Positions 2,536-57,323 of a DNA stretch of 64,000 bases are shown piece by piece. How positions within the stretch are numbered: position 1 is the stretch's first letter; each line of letters begins with the position of its first letter. The position numbers were made by a program, and so were the translations under genes. Under the pieces are notes generated by a model. The model worked only from the letters and a program-made list of their open reading frames with translations. It was not told where the DNA came from and ran no database searches. Origin of the DNA: an uncultured Actinomycetes bacterium (lineage in GTDB: Bacteria; Actinomycetota; Acidimicrobiia; IMCC26256; PALSA-555); assembly GCA_963731625.1 (NCBI GenBank), contig CAVSWH010000001.1, positions 200,570-264,569 on the forward strand, written 5' to 3'.

Positions 2536-4488
2536 CTACGGGGCCGCGGTCGCGAGCTGGTCGAGCCGCGGGCCGAGCCACCGGACAACGAGCTCGGCGG
2601 CCGGCCCCTCGTAGTGCATGTCGTCCTCGCGCAGCGTGATCCCGTCGATGCTGGTCTGGCACTGGTTCGCCGGGCACACCAGATCGCGGAAGTCGACGAG
2701 GTAGACGTTGTGCATCGAGAGCGCGGCGCGGATCTCGTCGGCGCGCAGGCAGTTCATGTGCACCTCGTAGGTGACGTCGTAGGTCGGGGCGGGCAGCGCG
2801 ACCGCGACGCGCGCGCCGGCCGCGGTGAGCTCCCGGAGCCCGGCGGCGACCTGGGCCTCGTACCAGGCGTCGTAGCTCGGCTCGCACGGGTGCACCCACT
2901 GCCCGTTCAGCAGCCAGTCGCCGACGACTTGCCCGGCGAGGGACACGAACACGACGTCGGGGTGGTCGTGGGCGATCTCGTCGACCCAGTGCGCCGCGCA
3001 GTTGGGCGACGAGGTGGCCGTGGAGCCGTCCGGCAGCCGGTGCGCGCCCGAGCCGGCCTCGAGGCCGCAGCCCACGGTCGTCTGGTCGGTCACCGTGTAG
3101 CCGTAGGTCGCCTGCAGGTCCGTGAACGCCGGCATGAGCCGGAACGCGATCGAGTCGCCCGTCACCATCAGGTGGAACGGTGGGTTCGGGACGGTGCTCG
3201 TCGTCGTCGTCACGTCGGTGGCGGTCGGGTGGGCGAGCGCGGTCAGGTGGCGCAGCGCCGCGGCCGGGTTCGTGCGGGGCGGCGTGGGCGGGACGGTCGC
3301 GACGACCACGGCGGCCGCCGTGAGCCCCACCGCGACCGGGGTGAGCGTGCGGATGCGCCACCCGCGCAGCGCCCCGTGGCGGATCGGCTGCTCGACGAGC
3401 CGGTAGCTCGCGAGCGCGACGGCGAGCGTGATCGCCACCTGCACGCCGGTCAGCGCCCAGCCGCTCACGCCGACGCGCGCCGGGGTGACCACGAGGTCGA
3501 CGGGCCAGTGCCACAGGTAGACGCCGTAGGAGATGAGCCCAAGCGCGCAGAGCGGTCGCCACGAGAACAGCCAGGCGATCGGGCCGCGGCGGGGGTGCGC
3601 CGCCGCGGCGATGACGAGCGCGGCCGCGGCCGAGCAGGCGAGCAGCAAGCCCTCGTACACCGCCGGGGTGCTGCCCGAGAGCCGCCACCACGCCCAGGCG
3701 AGGAAGCCGAGCGCGATGACGCCCCCGGCCTCGAGCCCGACACGGGTCACGCGGCGGGGCGTCCAGCCCCGGTCGGCGATCAGCGCGGCGAGCGCCGCGC
3801 CGAGCAGGATCGACGAGGCGCGGGTGTCCGTGCCCATGTACACGCGCTGGGGGTCCGCGCCCGGTGTGTAGAGCAGCAGCATCGTCGCGAACGACGCCGC
3901 CGCGCCGACGAGCGCCGCGACGAGCACGCCGCGCACCGACCGACGCCACGCGAGCACAGCGACGACGACGAGCGGCCACAGCAGGTAGAACTGCTCCTCG
4001 ATCGCCAGGCTCCACGTGTGCTCCAAGGGCGACGGCGCGCGGAACAGATCCCAGTACGAGGTGCCGTGGGCGATCTGGTGCCAGTTCGCCACGTAGCCGA
4101 GGGTCGCCAGCCCGTCGGCGCGGATCTGGCTGAGCTCGGACGGCGCCGCGAACACCAGCGCGTACACGCCGACGCCGAGGAGCATCAGCAGCAGCGCCGG
4201 CAGGAGGCGACGCGCCCGTCGCGCCCAGAACGCACCGAGCCGGATCCCGCCGTGCGCGGCCCGCTCCTCGAGCAGCAGGGACGTGATGAGAAAGCCCGAC
4301 AGGACGAAGAAGAGGTCGACGCCGAGCCAGCCGCCGACGAGGTGCCCGGCGTGGAACAGCACGACGGCCGCCACCGCGGCGCCGCGGAGCCCGTCGAGCG
4401 CCCGGACGTGACGGCGCGGCCCGGGGACCCCGCCCTCGGGACGGGGCGCGGCACTCGTTGCTGTGGCCCGCGACACCGACTCCCCCAC
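2536..4488 (-). CDS. Acyltransferase family 3 (OafA/YrhL-like) membrane O-acyltransferase fused to a C-terminal SGNH/GDSL domain
   Basis: The N-terminus carries LDGLRGAAVAAVVLFHAGH and about 10 hydrophobic helices. The C-terminal soluble domain has the block-I motif MVTGDSIAF. It is convergent with the GT2 gene, with a 1-nt gap. Confidence 0.88.
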   Translation of the reverse strand: MGESVSRATATSAAPRPEGGVPGPRRHVRALDGLRGAAVAAVVLFHAGHLVGGWLGVDLFFVLSGFLITSLLLEERAAHGGIRLGAFWARRARRLLPALLLMLLGVGVYALVFAAPSELSQIRADGLATLGYVANWHQIAHGTSYWDLFRAPSPLEHTWSLAIEEQFYLLWPLVVVAVLAWRRSVRGVLVAALVGAAASFATMLLLYTPGADPQRVYMGTDTRASSILLGAALAALIADRGWTPRRVTRVGLEAGGVIALGFLAWAWWRLSGSTPAVYEGLLLACSAAAALVIAAAAHPRRGPIAWLFSWRPLCALGLISYGVYLWHWPVDLVVTPARVGVSGWALTGVQVAITLAVALASYRLVEQPIRHGALRGWRIRTLTPVAVGLTAAAVVVATVPPTPPRTNPAAALRHLTALAHPTATDVTTTTSTVPNPPFHLMVTGDSIAFRLMPAFTDLQATYGYTVTDQTTVGCGLEAGSGAHRLPDGSTATSSPNCAAHWVDEIAHDHPDVVFVSLAGQVVGDWLLNGQWVHPCEPSYDAWYEAQVAAGLRELTAAGARVAVALPAPTYDVTYEVHMNCLRADEIRAALSMHNVYLVDFRDLVCPANQCQTSIDGITLREDDMHYEGPAAELVVRWLGPRLDQLATAAP

Positions 4489-7434: not shown

Positions 7435-8489
7435 AGGCGCGCGCCGTGTTGGAGGCACCAGCGGACGCTCGTCCGCATCCCCTCGAGCAGGCCGACCGCG
7501 GGCTCGTAGCCGAGCTCGGCACGCGCCCGGCCGATGTCGCAGGCGATCGTGTCGCGCAGCTCACCGAGCACGTGGATCGCCTGGACGTAGCGGCCCTGGC
7601 TCTGGAGCACCTGGTCGACGCGGGCCGCGAACGCTGCGGCGCTGACCGGGAGATGCGGCTGGTGGGACGAGACGCGCAGGCCCTCGGCCTGGAGCGCGCT
7701 GCGCACCGTGGCGAGCACGGTGCGCAGCTCGACGGGCTCGGCGTCCGCGATCCAGTAGGCCCGGCCGGGCGCGGCGGCCGCGACCTCGGCGCGCAGCAGC
7801 CCGTCGACGAGGTTGCCGGTGTAGACGAGCGACCGGCGGTTCGTGCCGGGGCCCGGGATCGGGAAGCGGCCCCGCCGCACCGCGGCGAAGAAGCGCGTCT
7901 GGCGAGCGGGCTGGTACGGGCCGTAGAACCAGGGCGGGCGCACGATGACCGTGGCCAGGTCGCCGCGGTCGTGGCTGCGCTGCACCAGCAGCTCGGCCTC
8001 GTACTTCGACTGCCCGTACCCGAGATAGGGGTGGTACGGGGAGTCCTCGGTGAAGCGGTCGGTGCGCGTCGGGTTCGCCCCGAACGGCGAGTTCGACGAC
8101 ACGTGCACGAATTGGGTCGCGCCGGCCCGGCGGGCCCGGTCCAGCACGAGCTGGGTGCCGCCGACGTTCACGTCGAAGAGCTCGCGGGTGCCGTGCTCGG
8201 GATGGATCACGCCCGCGGCGTGGAACACGGTCGCCGCCCCGACCCCGTCGAAGAGGCGGTCCGCGGCCCCGGGGTCCCGCACGTCGCCGGCGATCGCCTC
8301 GACCGTCGGCGAGAGGTTCTCGAGGACGGCCGCCTCGTCGCCGCTGCGCACCAGGCATCGGACCCGCGTGCGGGTCCGCGCCAGGTTCCGGACGAGGTGC
8401 TGGCCCAGCCACCCGGCGCCGCCGGTGACGACGACGACCGGCGGCGGCGCGACGTCGGGGCCCACGCCGGGCACGCCCTCGAAGCTCAC
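7431..8489 (-). CDS. NAD-dependent epimerase/dehydratase (extended SDR)
   Basis: It has VVVVTGGAGWLGQHL and YGQSKYEAE (YxxxK). It is co-directional with and coupled to the gene at 6406..7434. Confidence 0.88.
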   Translation of the reverse strand: MSFEGVPGVGPDVAPPPVVVVTGGAGWLGQHLVRNLARTRTRVRCLVRSGDEAAVLENLSPTVEAIAGDVRDPGAADRLFDGVGAATVFHAAGVIHPEHGTRELFDVNVGGTQLVLDRARRAGATQFVHVSSNSPFGANPTRTDRFTEDSPYHPYLGYGQSKYEAELLVQRSHDRGDLATVIVRPPWFYGPYQPARQTRFFAAVRRGRFPIPGPGTNRRSLVYTGNLVDGLLRAEVAAAAPGRAYWIADAEPVELRTVLATVRSALQAEGLRVSSHQPHLPVSAAAFAARVDQVLQSQGRYVQAIHVLGELRDTIACDIGRARAELGYEPAVGLLEGMRTSVRWCLQHGARL

Positions 8490-8535
8490 GGGCCCTTCTT
8501 CTAGTCGAGATGGTCGCGGCGGCGGCCATCGTCGC

Positions 8536-11115
8536 TCACTCCGTGGCGATGGCCTCCAGGACGTCGAGGCGAGCGGCGCGCCACGCGGGGGCCAGCGCGG
8601 CGACCACGCCCGCGACGACCGACAGGGCGACGAAGGCCACGAGCTCGACGGTCGGGAACCGCAGCACGGTGAGGCCCTCGGCCCGGAGCGCGCGTGTGAA
8701 CACCCAGCCCCACAGGACGCCGAGGCCGGTGCCGACGAGCCCGCCGAGGAGCGCGACGACGACCGACTCGCCCCGGATCATGCGGCGCAGCTGGCGGCGC
8801 GTCATCCCGACGACGCGGAGCAGCCCGAGCTCGCGGGTCCGCTCGAAGACCGAGAGGGCCAGCGTGTTCACGATCCCGAGCACGGCGATGATCTCGGACA
8901 GCATGAGCAGCGCGACCGTCACCGCCAGGACGCGGTCGACCGTCTGCTCCTGCGCGTGGGCGTATTCGGCGCGTGTGTACACGCTGATGTTGGGGAAGCT
9001 CGTGGCGAGTGCCCGGTGCAGCGCCGCCGCGGCGGCCGCCGTCTGCCCCGGGCGCGCGCGCACGTACACGAGCGTGTCCCCCGTCGCCGTGCCGAAGCCC
9101 TGCTCGTAGGCCGGCGCGGCGACGATGAAGCCAACGGGGAAGCCGCCGGTGAAGTCGCGCTGGGTGTAGATCCCCACCACGCGCAGGGTCACCGGCCCGG
9201 CGTTGGGGAACTGCATCCCGACGAGGCTCCCGATACCCAAGTGGTATTGGCGGCTCGCGTCCTGCGCGACGAGCACACCGTCGCTCCCCATCGCGGCGAT
9301 GCTGCCCTGGCGCAGCCCGAGGTCGGCGACCTGGGAGAGGTCGGCGGGCGACGCGCCTGCCACCGTCTCCTGGTTGCCGCCGATCGGGACCCGCACGTTC
9401 CCGAACCGGAACGCCGTGACCGCGGCGACCGAGTCGAGCTGCGCGACGCGCTGGGCGACCGTCGGCGAGAACGACGCGAACTGCTGGGCCTTCAGGATGA
9501 GGTCGGCGCGGATTCCGCCGCTCACCGCCCGGGAGATCGACGCCTTCGCGGACGCGCCGAAGATCGCGACGAGCCCGACGAGCGCGAGGCCGATGACGAG
9601 CGCCGAGGCGGTCGCCGCGGTGCGGCGGGGGTTGCGGGTCGCGTTCCCGCGGGCGAGCGTCCCGACCACGCCGGCGGCGCGCAGCGGGCGGGCGAGGAAA
9701 CCGGCGAGCGGGCCGGCGACCGCGGCGAGCAGTACAAGCACGCCGGCGAGGACGAGCACCGCGCCGGCCGCCACCCACCAGACCTCGCGCAGCGTGTTCG
9801 ACTGGTACTGGGTCCGGTGCAGCCCGATGAGGATGGCGGGCACCCCGAGGCCCGCGACGACGAGGCCGACGACGGCGCGGCGGGCGAGGGGTCGGCGCGC
9901 CTCGGTCCGGGCGTCGGTCACGGCGGCGAGCGGCGACACGCGGGCGGCGCGCAGCCCGGGCCACAGCGACGAGAGCACGGTCACGCCGAGCCCGACGCCG
10001 AACGCCGCGAGGACCGTGCGGGTCTCGAGCACCGCGGTCTGGCTCGGCACGGCGAAGCCGAGTCGGTCGGCGAGCCCGAGGAGCGCGACCGCGAGTCCGT
10101 ACCCGATGCCGACGCCCGCGGCCGCGCCGGCGGCGCCGATGACCGCCGCCTCGCCGAGCACCGAGGCGATCACCTGGGGCCCGCTCGCACCGAGCGCGCG
10201 GAGCAGCCCGAGCTCGTGGAGCCGCTGCGTCACGAGGATGGTGAAGGTGTTGAAGATGATGAACGCGGCGACGACCATCCCGATCGCGGTGAAGCCGAGG
10301 AGCAGGTCACCGAGGAGGGTCACGAAGTTCAGGACCACCTGCCCCCGGCTGGTGGCCACCTGCGCCGGGAGGTCCACCTCGTAGAAGGGGCCGAGGGCGC
10401 CGGTCAGGCGCGACTGCACCCGGTCGAGGCTGGCGTGGGGCGCGAGCGTCACGTACGCCGCGTCGAGCTGCCCGGGGGCGCCGAAGACCCGCTGCGCCGT
10501 GCGCAGGTCGAACGCCGCGAACGTGATCGGGCCGAGGTCCGCCTGGTCGCCGAGCGCGAAGAGCCCGACGATCTCGAACTGCTGCTTGGGCCCCTGAAGG
10601 AGCACGTCGACGCGGTCCCCGACGTGGAACCCGTAGCGCCGGGCCGTCCCGTCGTCCATCGCTACCTCGCCCGGGCGGGTCGGCGCGCGGCCGCGGCGGA
10701 CGCCGTCGGCGACGAGGTGCAGCGGGCCCTCCGAGCCGTGGTCCGCCCAGTTGATGCCGACCGTGGGCGCGCCCGAGCTGGAGATGGCGTGGCCGGACCG
10801 GTCGACGAACTGGGCGTAGCCGGTCACGAAACTCGTGGCGCTGCCGACGCCCGGGACGGCACGGGCCTGCGCGGTGACGGTGTCGGGGAACCGCTGGAGG
10901 AAGGCGCCGCCCCCGCCCCCGGGCGGGGGCCGGGCGCGGACGACGAGATCCACCCCGGCGAGGGTCTGGCGGTAGACGCCCTGGAAGGAGGTGGTCAGCG
11001 TGTCGGTGAGCACGAACGTCCCGGTGACGAACGCGACTCCGAGCACCACGGCGAGGCCGGTGAGGGCCAGGCGGACGCGCCGCCCGACGATCCCCTTGAC
11101 GGTGGCCTTCCACAT
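8536..11115 (-). CDS. ABC-transporter permease with two FtsX-type domains (MacB/FtsX-like, 860 aa)
   Basis: The start is set at ATG 11115 (MWKATVKGIVGRRVRLALTGLAVVLGVAF). Two modules, each with four helices, are separated by large extracytoplasmic regions. The upstream 157 codons of track ORF 8536..11586 are low-complexity and overlap the SDR gene region. Confidence 0.8.
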   Translation of the reverse strand: MWKATVKGIVGRRVRLALTGLAVVLGVAFVTGTFVLTDTLTTSFQGVYRQTLAGVDLVVRARPPPGGGGGAFLQRFPDTVTAQARAVPGVGSATSFVTGYAQFVDRSGHAISSSGAPTVGINWADHGSEGPLHLVADGVRRGRAPTRPGEVAMDDGTARRYGFHVGDRVDVLLQGPKQQFEIVGLFALGDQADLGPITFAAFDLRTAQRVFGAPGQLDAAYVTLAPHASLDRVQSRLTGALGPFYEVDLPAQVATSRGQVVLNFVTLLGDLLLGFTAIGMVVAAFIIFNTFTILVTQRLHELGLLRALGASGPQVIASVLGEAAVIGAAGAAAGVGIGYGLAVALLGLADRLGFAVPSQTAVLETRTVLAAFGVGLGVTVLSSLWPGLRAARVSPLAAVTDARTEARRPLARRAVVGLVVAGLGVPAILIGLHRTQYQSNTLREVWWVAAGAVLVLAGVLVLLAAVAGPLAGFLARPLRAAGVVGTLARGNATRNPRRTAATASALVIGLALVGLVAIFGASAKASISRAVSGGIRADLILKAQQFASFSPTVAQRVAQLDSVAAVTAFRFGNVRVPIGGNQETVAGASPADLSQVADLGLRQGSIAAMGSDGVLVAQDASRQYHLGIGSLVGMQFPNAGPVTLRVVGIYTQRDFTGGFPVGFIVAAPAYEQGFGTATGDTLVYVRARPGQTAAAAAALHRALATSFPNISVYTRAEYAHAQEQTVDRVLAVTVALLMLSEIIAVLGIVNTLALSVFERTRELGLLRVVGMTRRQLRRMIRGESVVVALLGGLVGTGLGVLWGWVFTRALRAEGLTVLRFPTVELVAFVALSVVAGVVAALAPAWRAARLDVLEAIATE

Positions 11116-53185: not shown

Positions 53186-53236
53186 TGGAGCGGACGACGG
53201 ATTCGAACACCCGCCACTCTCACCTTGGCGAGGTGA
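53186..53236 (-). pseudogene. 3' fragment of a tRNA-Gly(GCC): anticodon arm, decayed T-arm, acceptor strand and CCA. It is not a functional tRNA.
   Basis: The minus-strand reading is TCACC-TCGCCAA-GGTGA (anticodon GCC, C at position 33), GAGTG, GCGGGTGTTCGAATCCGT, CGTCCGC, T, CCA. There is no matching 5' acceptor strand or D-arm upstream, and the T-stem has 2 mismatches. It shares its last 14-15 nt with the units at 56.4 kb. Confidence 0.7.
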
Positions 53237-53250
53237 TGAACGCTTCCGGT

Positions 53251-53327
53251 GGAGACCGCTGGAACCGCTGGAGTCCAGGTCAGCGGCTTGCGTTCTCCGC
53301 TGGAGACCGCGGGAACCGCTCCAGTCC
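53251..53327 (+). repeat. Two 26-nt direct repeats (3 mismatches) next to the tRNA fragment
   Basis: GGAGACCGCTGGAACCGCTGGAGTCC lies at 53251-53276 and GGAGACCGCGGGAACCGCTCCAGTCC at 53302-53327. Further on, AGTAGCAGG occurs twice (53338, 53350) and there is a hairpin AGCAGGA-TTTGT-TCCTGCT (53353-53371). Confidence 0.7.
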
Positions 53328-53548
53328 GCTGGATTCGAGTAGCAGGTTCAGTAGCAGGATTTGTTCCTGCTCAGGCCGCCTCGCCGCGCTCAACACAAGG
53401 CTTCCTACGGGCATCTCGGCGAGTCTCAAGCACAAGCGTGCTGGCGGCGGGCCACCAGGCCGTGCCTCCACCACCTTCTTCTCCCGCGCGCGACCGTCGT
53501 CCTACGATAAGACGCGTCGGTGGCTCGCCGACCAGGAACGAGGGGGCC

Positions 53549-54571
53549 GTGGTAGATGCTTCGGCGCCTTTTTGGGCGCCTGATCCGACGGGCCGCTTCA
53601 GCCAGCGGTACTGGAGCGGCTCGGCGTGGACCGAGTGGGTCGCGGGCCCCGGCGGAGGCGACGCCTCTCGCGACCCCTTGCGGCCCGACGATCCCCAGGT
53701 CCCACCCGGCACGGCAGCAAAGCCGCAAGGCGCCGAAGCGACACCGGCCCCGGCCGGTGCGCCCCAACCGCCGCGCCAAACCGATACGTCGGACCTCGTC
53801 GTGCCCGGCCTCGCGGACTACGCCGCGCGGGCGGGGTGGCAGCCGCTCGGACCGCAGCCGTTCCCGTCGCCGTTCGACCGCTCCGTGAGCGGCTTTTCAC
53901 TGCTCTTCGTCCACGAAGCCGGTACCGGCGGGGCCCAGAACCCGGTGTCGGGGACCAGCTACCACAGCGCCTACGGCGGCGACCTCGACGGGAGCGCGTT
54001 CACCGTCGCCAACGCGTTCACCGCCGGGTGGCGGGGCTCCCGGGTCTCGGCTGCGCAGTTCTGGTTCCCCGTGATGTGCGGCGTCGAGGTCACGCCCCGC
54101 CGCCACGCCCTGCCCCGGTTCGGGGGCTTCACGACCGGCGACGCAGCGTTCGACGACCAGTTCACCGTTGAGACCCGTGACAAGGAGCTGGCGCATCGAC
54201 TCCTCACACCGGCGATACGGTCGCTCTTGTCGCAACGGGACGACTGGGCGTTCTGGATGTTCGGCTACACGGTGCTCTGCGTGTGCGGTGAGCCCTTTGG
54301 CGCCGTCGACGACGTGGCGGATCGACTGCGCTTCCTCCAGTCGCTCGGCCGCGCTATCCCACCCGAGCTCGGATCGAGCGAGCCGGCACCGACACCGCAC
54401 CTGACCCTGCCCGACGGCACACCGATCGACCTCACGCATCCCGAGCAGCTCAAGGCCGCTGTCGAGCGGCTCACGCCCGACCAGCAGGCTCAACTGCTCC
54501 AGCAGTTCCAGCAGCTGGACCCGAAGCTGCGCGAGCAGCTGCTCGTCCAGTTCGTGCAGCACAAGCACTGA
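53549..54571 (+). CDS. DUF2510-type N-terminal motif protein (340 aa), function unknown
   Basis: GTG 53549 is preceded by GAGGGGG. The N-terminus is FWAPDPTGRFSQRYWSGSAWTEWV (the WxPDPxGxxxxRYWDGxxWT-type motif). A Pro-rich linker and a roughly 230-aa unknown domain follow. The tail is Gln-rich (QQAQLLQQFQQLDPKLREQLLVQFVQHKH). Confidence 0.65.
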   Translation: MVDASAPFWAPDPTGRFSQRYWSGSAWTEWVAGPGGGDASRDPLRPDDPQVPPGTAAKPQGAEATPAPAGAPQPPRQTDTSDLVVPGLADYAARAGWQPLGPQPFPSPFDRSVSGFSLLFVHEAGTGGAQNPVSGTSYHSAYGGDLDGSAFTVANAFTAGWRGSRVSAAQFWFPVMCGVEVTPRRHALPRFGGFTTGDAAFDDQFTVETRDKELAHRLLTPAIRSLLSQRDDWAFWMFGYTVLCVCGEPFGAVDDVADRLRFLQSLGRAIPPELGSSEPAPTPHLTLPDGTPIDLTHPEQLKAAVERLTPDQQAQLLQQFQQLDPKLREQLLVQFVQHKH

Positions 54572-54703
54572 CGGCGCCGCCGGACCGTGCCCTCGGGGCC
54601 CGGAGGCTCGAGCCGACCCGCTGCGCGCGCGACCTGCATGGCCCGCACTGTCCTGATCGACGACCATCTGCTGCTCGGCGTTCTCGGGCAAGAGCGCTGA
54701 GCA

Positions 54704-54725
54704 GATGTCTGAATATATAGACATC
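54704..54725. promoter_or_regulatory. Candidate HipB operator/promoter: inverted repeat around an AT-rich -10-like box
   Basis: GATGTCT (54704-54710), GAATATAT, AGACATC (54719-54725). Related half-sites ATATCGACAT (54752-54761) and ATATGCAGACATC (54788-54800) follow. The last one overlaps the hipB ATG. Confidence 0.5.
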
Positions 54726-54789
54726 ACTGCAGAATACCGCTGTGTCGGGAAATATCGACATGCGCGCCGTCTGGTGCTAAAGTCGGGAT

Positions 54790-55041
54790 ATGCAGACATC
54801 TCGCGACCGTGGCAAAGAGCAACCGTTCCGGGTCTATACGCCCGGGTCCCTCGGAGCTGCCATACGCCACTACCGGCGGGAGGCCGGCTTGTCCCAAGCG
54901 GAGGTGGCCGAACGGGCCGGTCTCCACCGGTCATACCTCTCCGACCTTGAGCAAGGAAAGGAGACCGAGCAGGTCCGCCGGATCCTGCGGATCCTCAAGC
55001 AGTTAGGCGTTCGCATGACGCTCGAGAAGGCGGATTGGTGA
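54790..55041 (+). CDS. hipB: HipB-like XRE-family antitoxin/repressor
   Basis: The HTH is IRHYRREAGLSQAEVAERAGLHRSYLSDLEQGK. It is 83 aa, and its stop overlaps the hipA start region (TGATG). Confidence 0.85.
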   Translation: MQTSRDRGKEQPFRVYTPGSLGAAIRHYRREAGLSQAEVAERAGLHRSYLSDLEQGKETEQVRRILRILKQLGVRMTLEKADW

Positions 55042-56267
55042 TGGCGGACGCACTTGCGGTCTGGCTGTACGGGAGCCACCTGGCGACTGTCGAGCAGGAA
55101 CGAGGCCGTGTCCGACTCACGTACACCGACGAAGCACTGCAGACGTTTCCACTCGGAACACCGCTTCTGTCGCTATCACTTCCGTTGAGAGAAGAGAGGT
55201 ACACGCAAGGAGCTGTTCTTCCATTCCTTGACGGATTGCTTCCGGAGGGAGCGCCTCGCCGCGCCGCCGCTGAGGACTTCAATGTTCCAGCTGCTGAAAC
55301 CTACGCCCTGATCCGCGAGCTCGGCCGTGAATGCGCGGGTGCCGTTGTCATCCAACCCGTCATGGAGCCACCACCCCCGCAGCCGAGGACGAGCACGGCT
55401 CGACGCCTCTCCGAGATAGAGATTGATGAACTCGTTCGCAATCTGCGCAGCGCACCCCTCGGGATCGCTCAGCGCGTGCGCATCTCCCTTGCAGGTGTGC
55501 AAGAGAAGCTCGTGCTCACCCGCATGCTCGATGGCTCGTGGGGTAGCCCGGTCGATGGCACACCGTCGACGCACATTCTCAAGCCCGAACTCGCCGAGTA
55601 CCCCAAGATCGTTGAAACCGAGGCGTTTTGCATGCGCTTTGCGACGCACCTCGGCTTGCGCGTTGCAGACGTCCAGACAACGACCATCGGTGATCGCCGC
55701 CTGCTCGTTGTTGAGCGGTACGACCGCGTCGTTCACGACGATGGCTCTGTCGATCGCGTCCATCAAGAGGACATGTGCCAAGCGCGGGGTATTCCGCCGG
55801 TAAAGAAGTACCAGGAGGACGGTGGCCCCTCATTGCGGACAATCGCCGAGGTTGTTCAAACCGCCGCCGAACCACAAGCTGTTGAGATGCTGCTTCGGAT
55901 GACGACGGCAAACGTCCTCGTCGGAAACGGCGACGCTCACGGCAAGAACTTCTCACTCCTCCACGAGAGGAGCGGCGGGCTTCGACTCACGCCTCTCTAT
56001 GACGTGGTGTCGACACTCCACTATGGCCAGGATCGCCTCGCCATGTACATCGACGACGTGCGCCGTACAAACCGAGTCACACGCGAACGATTGCTCAACG
56101 AGGCAAGGACGTGGGGGCTCTCCGCGCGACGAGCATCCGCGGTCATCGACGATCTGCTCGAACGAGCCCCCGCGGCCCTTGAATCCGCGGCAGAGGAAAC
56201 GCCCGAATTGCCAGTGGAGATCCCCGCTCTTGTGACCGCACAGCGGAAGCAGCTTTTCGGCTCGTAG
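55041..56267 (+). CDS. hipA: HipA-family serine/threonine kinase toxin
   Basis: The N-terminal coupling domain has LAVWLYGSHLATVEQ and LPFLDGLLPEG. The kinase core has SLAGVQEKLVL, and the catalytic loop is VGNGDAHGKNFSLL. Possible starts are ATG 55041, GTG 55038 or TTG 55035. Confidence 0.88.
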   Translation: MADALAVWLYGSHLATVEQERGRVRLTYTDEALQTFPLGTPLLSLSLPLREERYTQGAVLPFLDGLLPEGAPRRAAAEDFNVPAAETYALIRELGRECAGAVVIQPVMEPPPPQPRTSTARRLSEIEIDELVRNLRSAPLGIAQRVRISLAGVQEKLVLTRMLDGSWGSPVDGTPSTHILKPELAEYPKIVETEAFCMRFATHLGLRVADVQTTTIGDRRLLVVERYDRVVHDDGSVDRVHQEDMCQARGIPPVKKYQEDGGPSLRTIAEVVQTAAEPQAVEMLLRMTTANVLVGNGDAHGKNFSLLHERSGGLRLTPLYDVVSTLHYGQDRLAMYIDDVRRTNRVTRERLLNEARTWGLSARRASAVIDDLLERAPAALESAAEETPELPVEIPALVTAQRKQLFGS

Positions 56268-56336
56268 GGCGGCCGCCGTTGTCTACGCGGCGACGGCCGC
56301 GATCACCTCCGACGGACGCGCCCTGATGGTCTGGAG

Positions 56337-56580
56337 ACACGAAGGAACGGGGCCGGGGCGAAACCGCGCCTAACGCGAACACCCGGGCCCCGCGGGTTCG
56401 AGTCCCGTCGTCCGCTCCAAGTCGTTGCACACGAGGGAACGGGGCCGGGGCGAAACAGGGGGAAACCCGGACACCCGGCCTCAGCGGGGTTCGAGTCTCG
56501 TCGTCCGCTCCAAGTCGTTGCACACCCGGAGGGACAGGCGGGGCGAAACGGCGCGAGCGGCGGACACAGCGGGACGGGCA
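56337..56580 (+). repeat. 2.5 tandem ~92-93-bp units. Units 1 and 2 end in a tRNA T-arm/acceptor/CCA module and are a candidate structured ncRNA array or att scars.
   Basis: Unit starts (ACAC) are at 56337, 56429 and 56522. The tRNA-like 3' blocks are at 56392-56419 and about 56484-56512, with encoded CCA at 56417-56419 and 56510-56512. A 9-bp helix lies at 56349-56357/56382-56391 and at 56441-56449/56474-56482. The inner hairpins are at 56365-56377 and 56459-56468. Confidence 0.85.
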
Positions 56581-56765
56581 ACGGCGAATCAGATACTCGC
56601 CGACCTCGTCGCCAACGGCATCGTGCTCAGGGTCATCTTGGACGCAGTTCAACGCGGACGAGAGCGGCGCCAGTCAACGAACAGCGAACAGCAGGGCGCA
56701 GCCTGAACCGGCGAAGGCGGACATCCGGCTGGCCCGGGCTCGCGTGCTCTCAATGCCGAGTTCGC

Positions 56766-57323
56766 TTAGGCCTTTCGCAGCTCTCGGACTTCGAGGCTCG
56801 CGACGATCTCAACGATGCCATAGACGATCATCCCCACCCCGATGATCACACAGATGATCGACAGCGAAAGAGACGGGTAGACGAGGCAAAGGATGCCGAT
56901 GGTCGTCGCGATCAGGCCGAGGAGCACAATGCCCCAACTCACCTTGCCGTCGTTCGCGCTGAAGCCGTGAAACAACTGCGTCACGCCACCGATCGTCCAG
57001 AAGATGCCGATGATGAATCCGAGGACTGCGACGGTCGTGGTCGTGTGGTGGAGCAGAAGCAGTGCGATGAGGATGGCGAGTAATCCCGCGAGGATGAGCC
57101 CGGTGCGCTCACCCGTTGCGCCGATCGCCTGGATAAGCCGAACGACGCCGAGGATGAAGAGCCAGATGCCGAAGATCACTGCGATCGCGTGCACAGAGTT
57201 GCTCGGCTTGAACGTCAATACGATTCCAAAGCCGAGCGTGACAACTCCAAACAGCGCGAACAACCACCATGCTCGCCCGACTGCTCGAATGCTTGCCGCC
57301 GGGTCGTCAGTCATCATGGACAT
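56766..57323 (-). CDS. HdeD/DUF308-family membrane protein
   Basis: It has six helices with the repeated GxxxxxxG pattern and WWLFALFGVVTLGFGIVLTFKP. Codon usage is AT-richer than in the core genes. Confidence 0.75.
   Translation of the reverse strand: MSMMTDDPAASIRAVGRAWWLFALFGVVTLGFGIVLTFKPSNSVHAIAVIFGIWLFILGVVRLIQAIGATGERTGLILAGLLAILIALLLLHHTTTTVAVLGFIIGIFWTIGGVTQLFHGFSANDGKVSWGIVLLGLIATTIGILCLVYPSLSLSIICVIIGVGMIVYGIVEIVASLEVRELRKA

What the first reader, a model, noticed from the sequence alone, without database searches (positions are those of the whole stretch)
56269..56580. Array of 2.5 tandem ~92-93-bp structured units ending in tRNA T-arm/acceptor/CCA modules, fused to the 3' end of hipBA
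A GC hairpin (GCGGCCG...CGGCCGC, 56269-56300) follows the hipA stop. After it come head-to-tail units starting at 56337, 56429 and 56522.

**tRNA-like 3' ends.** Units 1 and 2 each end in a textbook tRNA 3' end. Unit 1 has T-stem/loop GCGGG-TTCGAGT-CCCGT (56392-56408), and unit 2 has GCGGG-GTTCGAGT-CTCGT. Both then have acceptor strand CGTCCGC, discriminator T and an encoded CCA. From memory this matches the end of bacterial tRNA-Gly(GCC), for example E. coli ...GAGTTCGAGTCTCGTTTCCCGCTCCA.

**Non-tRNA 5' part.** The 5' two-thirds are not tRNA-like. A 9-bp GC helix (GGGGCCGGG with CCCGG(G)CCCC or CCCGGCCTC, including a G-C to G-U change between copies) encloses an invariant GGGGCGAAAC and a small hairpin. 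That hairpin's sequence is completely different in the two copies yet still pairs: CGCG-CCTAA-CGCG versus GGG-GAAA-CCC. Near-identical flanks with a swapped but still-paired hairpin suggest selection on RNA structure rather than neutral decay. With only two full copies this is weak statistics. Unit 3 retains only GGGGCGAAAC...GGACAC.

**Possible disrupted tRNA gene.** Upstream, ACGGACG (56312-56318) could pair 6/7 with the unit-1 acceptor strand and is followed by a D-loop-like GATGGTCT. So 56312-56419 (108 nt) may be a tRNA-Gly gene whose anticodon domain was replaced.

**Hypotheses.** (a) It is a tRNA-acceptor mimic RNA working with the HipA kinase, whose family targets aminoacyl-tRNA synthetases. 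It might be a decoy or RNA antitoxin, comparable in layout to the repeat-array antitoxins of type III TA systems. (b) It is a tRNA-like 3' processing or stabilising element for the hipBA mRNA. (c) It is stacked att scars from serial integration at a tRNA-Gly.
Basis: partly seen in the sequence, partly recalled or inferred. Interest (0 to 1): 0.85.

Follow-up and report, generated by a model that had tools for sequence, protein, structure and literature searches.

The report
Duplicated tRNA-Gly end scar beside hipBA
The repeats after the hipBA toxin-antitoxin genes are real, but they are most likely a decaying, locally duplicated leftover of a tRNA-Gly gene end at a hotspot where mobile DNA inserts, not an RNA that works with the HipA toxin.

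Summary
**Observation: confirmed.**
- There are 2.4 tandem copies of a 92-93 bp unit at 56337-56554.
- Units 1 and 2 end in the last 26-29 nt (T-arm, 3' acceptor strand, discriminator, CCA) of the tRNA-Gly(GCC) of close relatives.

**Link to hipA: positional only.**
- In relatives whose hipBA cassette is 91-92% identical, the homology stops exactly at window 56336.
- There it runs into an intact tRNA-Gly(GCC) gene (L094) or a displaced 3' fragment of it (L034, L035).
- Those pieces lie on the opposite strand, and none of these relatives has the array.
- The window carries another decayed tRNA-Gly fragment with its arm at 53186-53357.
- hipBA is therefore cargo of a small islet at a tRNA-Gly integration hotspot.

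**No sign of a functional RNA.**
- The unit was found nowhere except in the same species.
- It matches no Rfam family and no tRNA call.
- Its folding energy is no better than shuffled sequence.
- There is one compensatory pair, which is not significant.
- Unit 2 has an insertion at the T-loop, and unit 3 is about 62% identical to the others.
- Units 1 and 2 differ by about the neutral amount.

**Best reading:** a lineage-specific tandem duplication of a tDNA-fragment (att-type) scar.

**Caveats:** no integrase was found, and the inverted orientation is unexplained.

**Interest:** low.

The parts
54704..56336 (+). hipBA cassette: a block shared at 91-92% identity with relatives L034, L035 and L094. 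It has sharp ends. It starts at the palindrome GATGTCT-N8-AGACATC (54704-54725).
   Evidence: blastn; sequence
54790..55041 (+). hipB, an HTH antitoxin of 83 aa. Its stop codon overlaps the hipA start codon.
   Evidence: precomputed Pfam HTH_3/HTH_31 hits on the identical gene in L032
55041..56267 (+). hipA, a kinase toxin of 408 aa
   Evidence: Pfam Couple_hipA and HipA_C, E = 4e-54; exact product found on two further contigs
56269..56300 (+). Imperfect GC hairpin after the hipA stop codon. It has no T-run, and its 5' arm is not conserved in relatives.
56301..56331 (+). Conserved cassette flank. In relatives it lies directly against the CCA end of a minus-strand tRNA-Gly(GCC) gene or fragment.
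   Evidence: alignment
56332..56336 (-). TGGAG, the reverse complement of CTCCA. It aligns with the CCA end of the minus-strand tRNA-Gly seen at this spot in L034, L035 and L094, and may be all that is left of it here. Homology to relatives ends at this point.
56337..56428 (+). Unit 1. It has 54 nt of non-tRNA sequence (the GGGGCCGGG...CCCGGGCCCC helix around GGGGCGAAAC and a small hairpin). The tRNA-Gly 3' fragment follows at 56391-56419 (positions 48-76, 28/29). The spacer AGTCGTTGC is at 56420-56428.
56429..56521 (+). Unit 2, 86% identical to unit 1. Its tRNA-Gly 3' fragment is at 56487-56512 (24/26) and has an extra G at the T-loop and a C-to-T change in the T-stem. The spacer AGTCGTTGC follows.
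56522..56600 (+). Unit 3, decayed (about 62% identical to units 1 and 2). It keeps ACAC...GGGGCGAAAC...GGACAC but has no recognisable T-arm or CCA. The covariance model does not detect it.
56601..56754 (.). The rest of the species-specific spacer. Homology to DUF308 relatives begins at 56755.
56766..57323 (-). DUF308/HdeD-family membrane protein gene, convergent with hipA. It is conserved in Acidimicrobiales.
53186..53357 (-). Second tRNA-Gly(GCC) remnant. The decayed 3' two-thirds (positions 25-76, 89% identity) lies at 53186-53238. A ~120-nt arm with direct repeats lies at 53239-53357. The same arm-plus-core module occurs twice in L047.

Best explanation
**What it is.** The array is non-coding, lineage-specific DNA. 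A ~92-bp segment has been duplicated in tandem, giving two full copies and one decayed copy. The segment consists of about 63 bp of non-tRNA sequence plus the last 26-29 nt of a tRNA-Gly gene (T-arm, 3' acceptor strand, discriminator, CCA). This tRNA piece is the kind of displaced tDNA 3' fragment (att core) that site-specific integration leaves at the borders of islands inserted in tRNA genes.

**Where it sits.** It lies at the junction where, in relatives, the hipBA cassette abuts the tRNA-Gly(GCC) gene or a displaced fragment of it. The proximity to hipA therefore reflects integration-site architecture, not function.

**Shown here:**
- the repeat itself and its identity to a tRNA-Gly 3' end;
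- the cassette boundaries;
- the tRNA-Gly gene or fragments next to hipA in relatives;
- the absence of the array in those relatives;
- unit divergence at about the neutral level.

**Inferred:**
- A fragment that starts at the T-stem (the 'T/J sublocation' type of attachment site) was created by an integrase-borne event.
- A non-site-specific rearrangement (inversion or deletion) then removed the minus-strand tRNA-Gly piece, leaving only TGGAG, and brought the plus-strand fragment next to it.
- Slippage or unequal crossing-over between the short direct repeats multiplied the unit.
- The copies have been decaying since.

No present function is proposed beyond a possible residual role as a recombination hotspot.
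For: **The repeat and its tRNA-Gly identity**
- The tandem repeat is reported by TRF.
- The unit ends match tRNA-Gly(GCC) positions 48-76 and 51-76 of relative L034.
- Phage and plasmid searches hit only tRNA 3' ends.

**Comparative context**
- The hipBA block 54704-56336 is shared at 91-92% identity, and the homology ends exactly at TGGAG.
- L094 has the full tRNA-Gly(GCC) gene on the minus strand right after that point.
- L034 has a fragment there (positions 31-76), a second fragment at 416-453 and the intact gene at 3216-3291.
- The L035 contig ends inside the same fragment.
- The window has another decayed fragment plus arm at 53186-53357. Its ~190-nt module recurs twice in L047 and carries direct repeats.
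- A tDNA paired with its displaced fragment is the standard mark of island ends. Both T-stem-type and anticodon-type sites occur, and tandem arrays are known (PMC4383910; PMC3146451).

**Against a function**
- ARAGORN finds no tRNA in the window.
- Nothing reaches any Rfam gathering score, and the best permissive match is 15 bits at E = 9.9.
- Folding z-scores are -0.1 to -0.9.
- There is one compensatory pair, and 241 of 500 shuffles do as well.
- No promoter-like or terminator-like site lies in the array.
- The overlapping ORFs have no Pfam hit, and no gene was called there on L032/L033.
- The unit is absent from 185,579 representative genomes, JGI metagenomes and IMG/VR for the patterns tried.
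- The covariance model finds only the two units and ordinary tRNA-Gly pieces.
- Units 1 and 2 are 86% identical. This compares with 84.8% at hipA third codon positions and 79-81% in the non-coding flank between the window and its relatives.
Against: - No integrase was found in the tested ORFs of the window or in any of the tRNA-Gly-bounded islets examined. Integrase involvement therefore rests on general knowledge only.
- The window contains no intact tRNA-Gly gene.
- The array fragments are in the opposite orientation to the tRNA-Gly pieces seen in relatives. This needs an extra, unobserved rearrangement.
- The cores are only 63 bp apart, so they cannot each mark a separate island.
- Differences between units 1 and 2 are clustered: 7 of the 13 differences fall in the 14-nt inner hairpin. 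GGGGCGAAAC is invariant in all three copies. Both observations are not what uniform neutral decay predicts. Template-switch mutation in a quasi-palindrome could produce the cluster, but this was not tested.
- The array T-loop is TTCGAGT, whereas every relative's tRNA-Gly or fragment has TTCGAAT. The donor tRNA-Gly gene is therefore unidentified.
- The collection scans needed exact pattern matches, so diverged copies elsewhere would have been missed.
Confidence: 0.6

Rival explanations
1. Decayed tandem tRNA(-like) gene copies. The units would be pseudogenes from a tandem tRNA-Gly gene cluster (about 79 nt from GGGAACG to CCA, plus a 13-nt spacer) whose 5' two-thirds were scrambled before the last duplication. 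They would not be integration scars.
For: - The 92-93 bp period is close to a tRNA length plus a short spacer.
- MAFFT places the unit's GGAACG-GGGC opposite the tRNA's GCGGACG-TGGC.
- The 5' GGGAACG of unit 2 could pair 5/7 with the 3' acceptor strand (direct reading).
- This reading needs no integrase, and none was found.
Against: - Similarity of the 5' part to tRNA-Gly is at background level for 67% GC DNA. ARAGORN and Rfam do not see even a pseudo-tRNA.
- tRNA identity starts abruptly at position 48, as in T-stem-type att fragments.
- The locus is demonstrably an integration hotspot full of tRNA-Gly 3' fragments.
- No tandem tRNA-Gly cluster was seen in any relative.
Confidence: 0.13
2. 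Still-usable secondary attachment sites. The repeated cores would serve as a multi-copy landing pad (pseudo-attB sites) for integrases that target the T-stem and acceptor end of tRNA-Gly. The array would then be kept because it captures or exchanges islets such as hipBA.
For: - The cores of units 1 and 2 are nearly intact through the CCA.
- The region is mosaic, with hipBA found in at least 5 different contexts.
- Integrase-less cassettes bounded by tRNA-Gly fragments recur in relatives.
- Integrase-less mobilisable elements with working att sites are documented elsewhere (PMC3146451).
Against: - No integrase was found nearby.
- All three other contigs of this species carry the same array and no inserted cargo.
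- Unit 2's core is damaged and unit 3's is gone.
Confidence: 0.1
3. Functional tRNA-like RNA linked to hipBA. The units would be transcribed with or after hipBA and act as acceptor-arm mimics (a decoy or antitoxin for HipA or its aminoacyl-tRNA synthetase target), or as 3' processing or stabilising modules.
For: - The units are on the same strand as hipBA and immediately downstream of it, with no canonical terminator between.
- The T-arm, acceptor strand and CCA of unit 1 are intact.
- A 9-bp GC helix can form in both units.
- There is one compensatory pair, and GGGGCGAAAC is invariant.
Against: - The array is absent from every relative with 91-92% identical hipBA.
- It was not found anywhere else.
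- No 5' acceptor strand is present, so there is no acceptor helix for RNase P, the CCA-adding enzyme or a synthetase.
- Unit 2 has an insertion at the T-loop, and unit 3 has decayed.
- Folding is not better than for shuffled sequence, and covariation is not significant.
- hipBA already has its protein antitoxin, HipB.
Confidence: 0.05

Closest known systems
Displaced tDNA 3' fragments (attR/attL cores) at the borders of genomic islands integrated in tRNA genes, as used by the Islander method (PMC4383910; Williams 2002, cited there)
   Same: - The units carry an exact copy of the 3' end of a tRNA gene running through the CCA.
- tRNA identity starts abruptly, here at the T-stem, which corresponds to the 'T/J' class of attachment site.
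- The array lies at the edge of accessory cargo (hipBA).
- Relatives show the matching configuration of an intact tRNA-Gly gene plus fragments.
   Different: - Two cores lie only 63 bp apart, with no cargo between them.
- The orientation is opposite to the tRNA-Gly gene and fragments seen at this junction in relatives.
- No intact cognate tRNA gene and no integrase was found in the 64-kb window.
Tandem islands with repeated tDNA-end direct repeats, including integrase-less mobilisable remnants, e.g. the Dehalococcoides ssrA genomic islands (PMC3146451)
   Same: - Several copies of a t(m)RNA gene 3' end are strung along a highly variable region.
- Some bounded segments lack their own integrase.
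- Conserved sequence lies next to the repeats.
   Different: In Dehalococcoides the repeats are kilobases apart and each bounds an island. Here the array units are 92 bp apart and are duplicates of one another.
   Same: A short tandem repeat lies next to a toxin gene on the same strand.
   Different: - ToxI-type repeats lie upstream of an endoribonuclease toxin, have many near-identical ~36-nt units, and are conserved with the toxin.
- Here the repeat is downstream of a kinase toxin that has its own protein antitoxin.
- It has only 2 good copies, at 86% identity.
- It is missing from close relatives.
Canonical tRNA-Gly(GCC) gene
   Same: The T-arm, 3' acceptor strand, discriminator U and CCA match at 28/29 in unit 1.
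   Different: There is no 5' acceptor strand, D-arm or anticodon arm. ARAGORN and Rfam do not call the units.

Membership tests
tRNA gene (tRNA-Gly) | Full cloverleaf detectable by a tRNA finder or covariance model | tested here: not met
   ARAGORN finds 0 genes in the window. Rfam gives only a tRNA-Sec match of 15.3 bits at E = 9.9, against a gathering score of 47.
tRNA gene (tRNA-Gly) | 7-bp acceptor stem formed by the 5' and 3' strands | tested here: not met
   The 3' strand CGTCCGC is present. The best 5' candidates pair 4/7 (unit 1) and 5/7 (unit 2) by direct reading. ACGGACG at 56312-56318 is conserved hipBA-cassette flank.
tRNA gene (tRNA-Gly) | T-arm, discriminator and CCA matching a tRNA-Gly | tested here: met
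   28/29 (unit 1) and 24/26 (unit 2) to positions 48-76 and 51-76 of the L034 tRNA-Gly(GCC) gene. Unit 2 has an extra G at the T-loop.
Displaced tDNA fragment / att scar of a tRNA-integrated island | End fragment of a tDNA, identical through the gene's 3' end, outside conserved coding sequence | tested here: met
   The overlapping ORFs have no Pfam hit, and no gene was called there on L032/L033.
Displaced tDNA fragment / att scar of a tRNA-integrated island | Cognate intact tDNA on the same replicon, upstream and in the same orientation | tested here: inconclusive
   There is no tRNA in the 64-kb window. Relatives have tRNA-Gly(GCC) at this junction, but on the opposite strand. The rest of the genome was not available.
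Displaced tDNA fragment / att scar of a tRNA-integrated island | Integrase gene inside the bounded island | tested here: not met
   No Phage_integrase hit among 23 ORFs tested between 43 and 64 kb. None was found in the islets of L034, L047 or L041.
Type III TA RNA antitoxin array | Repeat array conserved together with its toxin gene across relatives | tested here: not met
   Four relatives with 91-92% identical hipA (L034, L035, L093, L094) lack the array.
Type III TA RNA antitoxin array | Endoribonuclease toxin that processes the repeats; the repeats lie upstream of the toxin gene | tested here: not met
   The toxin is a HipA kinase (Pfam) with HipB upstream. The repeats lie downstream.
Structured RNA family supported by covariation | Helices supported by compensatory changes beyond controls, and folding more stable than shuffled sequence | tested here: not met
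   One compensatory pair, and 241 of 500 shuffles do as well. Folding z-scores are -0.13 to -0.87. Only two sequences exist, so statistical power is minimal.
hipBA type II toxin-antitoxin module (the neighbour, not the array) | HipA N-terminal and C-terminal kinase domains, with an overlapping upstream HTH antitoxin gene | tested here: met

The most novel reading that the evidence does not exclude
The units are transcribed as the tail of the hipBA mRNA and cut out as ~80-90-nt RNAs. These RNAs would present a tRNA-Gly-like T-arm, 3' acceptor strand and CCA on a GC-rich helix. They would then act as acceptor-end mimics that titrate HipA, its aminoacyl-tRNA synthetase substrate or a CCA/3'-end processing enzyme. 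This would be a young, lineage-specific RNA layer on a type II toxin-antitoxin system.
Probability: 0.04. Interest if true: 0.8.

Novelty: new member of a known kind. Interest (0 to 1): 0.2.

Why it matters
- **Mainly a cautionary result.** A tRNA-like 3' end next to a toxin gene looked like a functional RNA. Comparison with relatives shows the toxin-antitoxin cassette is cargo parked at a tRNA-Gly integration hotspot, and the tRNA-like modules are debris from that hotspot.
- **Evidence of mobility.** The hipBA module moves as a sharply bounded 1.6-kb unit between contexts in Acidimicrobiales.
- **Possibly more interesting than the array.** Small islets with no integrase found, bounded by a conserved arm plus tRNA-Gly half-gene module, recur in these genomes.
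- **If the tandem cores proved to be active attachment sites or expressed RNAs, the finding would matter more.** Nothing here supports that.

Tried and rejected
**Searches that found nothing related**
- Rfam at permissive E-values on the region, and at gathering scores on the whole window: nothing relevant.
- ARAGORN on the window: no tRNA.
- Phage and plasmid blastn: only generic tRNA 3' ends.
- Genome-contig scan for GGGGCGAAAC...GGTTCGAGTC: 31 hits, about my own rough estimate of the chance number, and none resembling the unit.
- Metagenome-contig scan for GGCGAAAC...TTCGARTCYCGTCGTCCGCTCCA: 9 hits, all ordinary tRNA-Gly(GCC) fragments of unrelated marine islands.
- Three IMG/VR scans: nothing related.
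- A covariance model built from units 1 and 2, searched over 258 kb of held sequence: only the units themselves and tRNA-Gly pieces.

**Ideas rejected or left without support**
- The non-tRNA 5' part of the unit as a homologue of the arm next to the L034 fragment, or as a reverse-complemented T-arm: similarity of about 46%, which is background for this GC content.
- Site-specific inversion between inverted cores as the origin of the orientation: rejected, because it would leave both cores intact, whereas only TGGAG remains at 56332-56336.
- Protein-coding repeats: rejected, because a 92-nt period breaks the reading frame and the ORFs have no Pfam hit.
- An integrase in a marine tRNA-Gly island (L041) to serve as a positive example: none found.

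Full report

Tandem Repeats Finder reports 56337-56554 with period 93, 2.4 copies and 82% matches. Reading the sequence confirms:
- the imperfect GC hairpin at 56269-56300, just after the hipA stop codon (TAG, 56265-56267);
- unit starts at 56337, 56429 and 56522;
- in unit 1, GCGGG-TTCGAGT-CCCGT (56392-56408), followed by CGTCCGC, T and CCA up to 56419.

The 25-nt 3' module occurs twice in the window and in none of 100 shuffles. GGGGCGAAAC occurs three times against 0.18 expected.

hipB (54790-55041) and hipA (55041-56267) are genuine. Pfam finds Couple_hipA and HipA_C with E = 4e-54.

Some details need correcting:
- The two inner hairpins share 7 of 14 positions and differ by a single compensatory pair.
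- Unit 2 has an extra G at the T-loop and a C-to-T change in the T-stem.
- Neither unit has a 5' acceptor strand.
- Unit 3 is only about 62% identical to the others.

**2. What are the 3' modules?**

A close relative (L034, a JGI metagenome contig) has a bona fide tRNA-Gly(GCC) gene (ARAGORN). Unit 1 matches positions 48-76 of that gene at 28/29, and unit 2 matches positions 51-76 at 24/26. The phage and plasmid collections return only tRNA 3' ends.

The units are not tRNA genes and not members of a known RNA family:
- ARAGORN finds no tRNA in the whole window.
- Rfam has nothing at gathering scores. At permissive thresholds it gives only a 15-bit tRNA-Sec match with E = 9.9.

**3. The decisive evidence is comparative.**

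The exact HipA protein is encoded on two further contigs (L032, L033) whose intergenic region is 100% identical. A third contig, L050, is 99.8% identical. These are the same species and give no useful variation.

HipA homologues at 91-92% identity are informative. The window shares a block, 54704-56336, with L034, L035 and L094, and the homology stops exactly at TGGAG, 56332-56336. What follows in each relative is:

| Relative | What follows TGGAG or the hipA stop |
|---|---|
| L094 | TGGAG continues as the complete tRNA-Gly(GCC) gene on the minus strand |
| L034 | A minus-strand 3' fragment (positions 31-76) at 2301-2346, then a 0.87-kb RibD_C islet, then the intact gene at 3216-3291. A further fragment (positions 39-76) lies on the other side of hipBA at 416-453 |
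| L035 | The contig ends inside the same fragment |
| L093 | The sequence diverges immediately after the hipA stop codon |

None of these relatives has the array.

The window itself carries a second, decayed minus-strand fragment (positions 25-76, 89% identity) at 53186-53238, with a ~120-nt arm up to 53357. This arm-plus-core module recurs twice in L047 at 84-89% identity and contains 32-nt and 9-nt direct repeats.

A tRNA gene paired with displaced 3' fragments of it, with accessory genes in between, is the textbook signature of site-specific integration at tRNA genes. Tandem arrays and two classes of crossover site (anticodon-centred and T-stem/junction) are documented (PMC4383910). Strings of such repeats, including segments without their own integrase, are described for Dehalococcoides ssrA islands (PMC3146451).

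So hipBA is cargo of a small islet at a tRNA-Gly hotspot.

**4. What is special about this genome?**

The 418 bp at 56337-56754 are unique to this species. They lie between the end of the cassette homology (56336) and the start of homology to DUF308/HdeD relatives at 56755.

The array's tRNA-Gly ends point the opposite way from the tRNA-Gly gene and fragments that relatives have at this junction. They begin at the T-stem rather than at the anticodon loop. Their T-loop is TTCGAGT, whereas every relative has TTCGAAT.

Units 1 and 2 share both their upstream sequence (27 of the first 28 nt identical) and their downstream spacer (AGTCGTTGC). They are therefore copies of each other and not independent scars.

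**5. Tests for a functional RNA.**

- Folding energies of the units are indistinguishable from those of shuffled sequence (z = -0.13 to -0.87).
- On the proposed structure, 94% of cells pair. But there is only one double change, and 241 of 500 shuffles do as well.
- No promoter-like or terminator-like site lies in the array.
- The overlapping ORFs have no Pfam match, and a 92-nt period is not a multiple of three.
- Exact-pattern scans found no second instance of the unit. The collections were 185,579 representative genomes (31 hits, about my own rough estimate of the chance number, none related), JGI metagenomes (9 ordinary tRNA-Gly fragments) and IMG/VR.
- A covariance model of units 1 and 2 finds only the units themselves (108-110 bits) and tRNA-Gly pieces (30 bits or less) in 258 kb of related sequence. 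It does not detect unit 3.
- Units 1 and 2 are 86% identical. This is about the same as hipA third-codon identity between the window and L034 (84.8%), and no lower than the non-coding flank identity (79-81%). The copies have diverged at roughly the neutral rate.

**6. Most likely history (inferred).**

1. An integration event at a tRNA-Gly left a T-stem-type 3' fragment with adjacent element DNA.
2. A non-site-specific rearrangement removed the minus-strand tRNA-Gly piece next to hipA, leaving only TGGAG, and joined it to this fragment. A site-specific inversion can be excluded, because it would have kept both cores intact.
3. Slippage or unequal crossing-over between short direct repeats produced the tandem copies, which are now decaying.

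I put this at about 0.6. The weak points are:
- No integrase was found in the tested ORFs of the window or in any islet examined.
- No intact tRNA-Gly gene lies within the 64 kb.
- The donor of the TTCGAGT core is unknown.
- Differences cluster in the inner hairpin, and GGGGCGAAAC is invariant. Neither fits uniform neutral decay.

**7. Rival explanations.**

- Decayed tandem tRNA-like pseudogenes (0.13).
- Still-usable secondary attachment sites (0.10).
- A functional tRNA-mimic RNA tied to HipA (0.05).

The last of these is contradicted by the absence of the array from all close hipBA relatives, the lack of an acceptor helix, and the damage to units 2 and 3.

**8. Verdict.**

Its tRNA-Gly assignment is correct, and hypothesis (c) is nearest the mark. 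The feature is an unusual-looking but ordinary by-product of tRNA-targeted integration, so interest is low.

Two side observations may deserve a look of their own: the recurrent arm-plus-tRNA-Gly-half modules that bound islets in which no integrase was found, and the sharply bounded, context-hopping hipBA module.

Noticed in passing
window 53186-53357 (minus sense); L047 3180-3349 and 5606-5782: A conserved ~190-nt module made of an arm plus the 3' two-thirds of tRNA-Gly(GCC). The arm carries 32-nt x2 and 9-nt x2 direct repeats. The module recurs at 84-89% identity in different genomes and bounds small islets. No integrase was found in those islets (window 53.2-56.3 kb, L047, L034, and an unrelated marine one in L041). 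They may be mobilisable cassettes that depend on an integrase encoded elsewhere.
   Followed up: partly
window 54704-56336; L034 672-2305; L035 2707-4328; L094 1-1280; L093 1-1039: The hipBA module has sharp homology boundaries. Across five contigs it has at least three different left and three different right neighbours. It begins at a perfect palindrome, GATGTCT-N8-AGACATC (54704-54725), whose half-site recurs at the hipB start. This looks like a HipB operator.
   Followed up: partly
L034 2301-3291: A 0.87-kb islet carrying only a RibD_C-domain gene lies between the intact tRNA-Gly(GCC) gene and a displaced fragment. The motif CAYCAGGGCAGGTC follows the CCA at both sites, and a diverged version (GCGCGTC in place of GCAGGTC) lies next to the TGGAG remnant in the window. 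The conserved att sequence therefore seems to extend past the tRNA end.
   Followed up: no
window 53249-54700: About 1.4 kb lies between the decayed tRNA-Gly fragment and hipBA. It has overlapping ORFs on both strands (53249-54571 on +, 53897-54934 on -) with no convincing Pfam match (only weak DUF2510 and DUF3137). The + ORF would start inside the repeat-bearing arm, so its annotated start is doubtful.
   Followed up: no
L049 3168-7597: In an 80%-identical DUF308 relative, the other side of the DUF308 gene holds tRNA-Asp and tRNA-Phe genes. These are followed by a Mu-transposase C-terminal fragment, an HTH_17 (excisionase-like) gene and a 76-aa integrase fragment. The DUF308 neighbourhood is therefore an island-prone region in several lineages.
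   Followed up: no
L041 6877-13613 (marine metagenome): An intact tRNA-Gly(GCC) gene and its 3' fragment (anticodon loop to CCA) bracket 6.6 kb of purely metabolic genes (SDR, luciferase-like monooxygenase, P450, ABC transporter). None of the six ORFs of at least 200 aa that I tested matches an integrase (a seventh, 7935-8657 on the + strand, overlaps two of them and was not tested). Eight further marine-metagenome loci returned by the same scan carry a near-identical fragment plus arm.
   Followed up: partly
window 56678-56692: A small perfect tandem repeat, CGAACAG x2, in the species-specific spacer downstream of the array.
   Followed up: no
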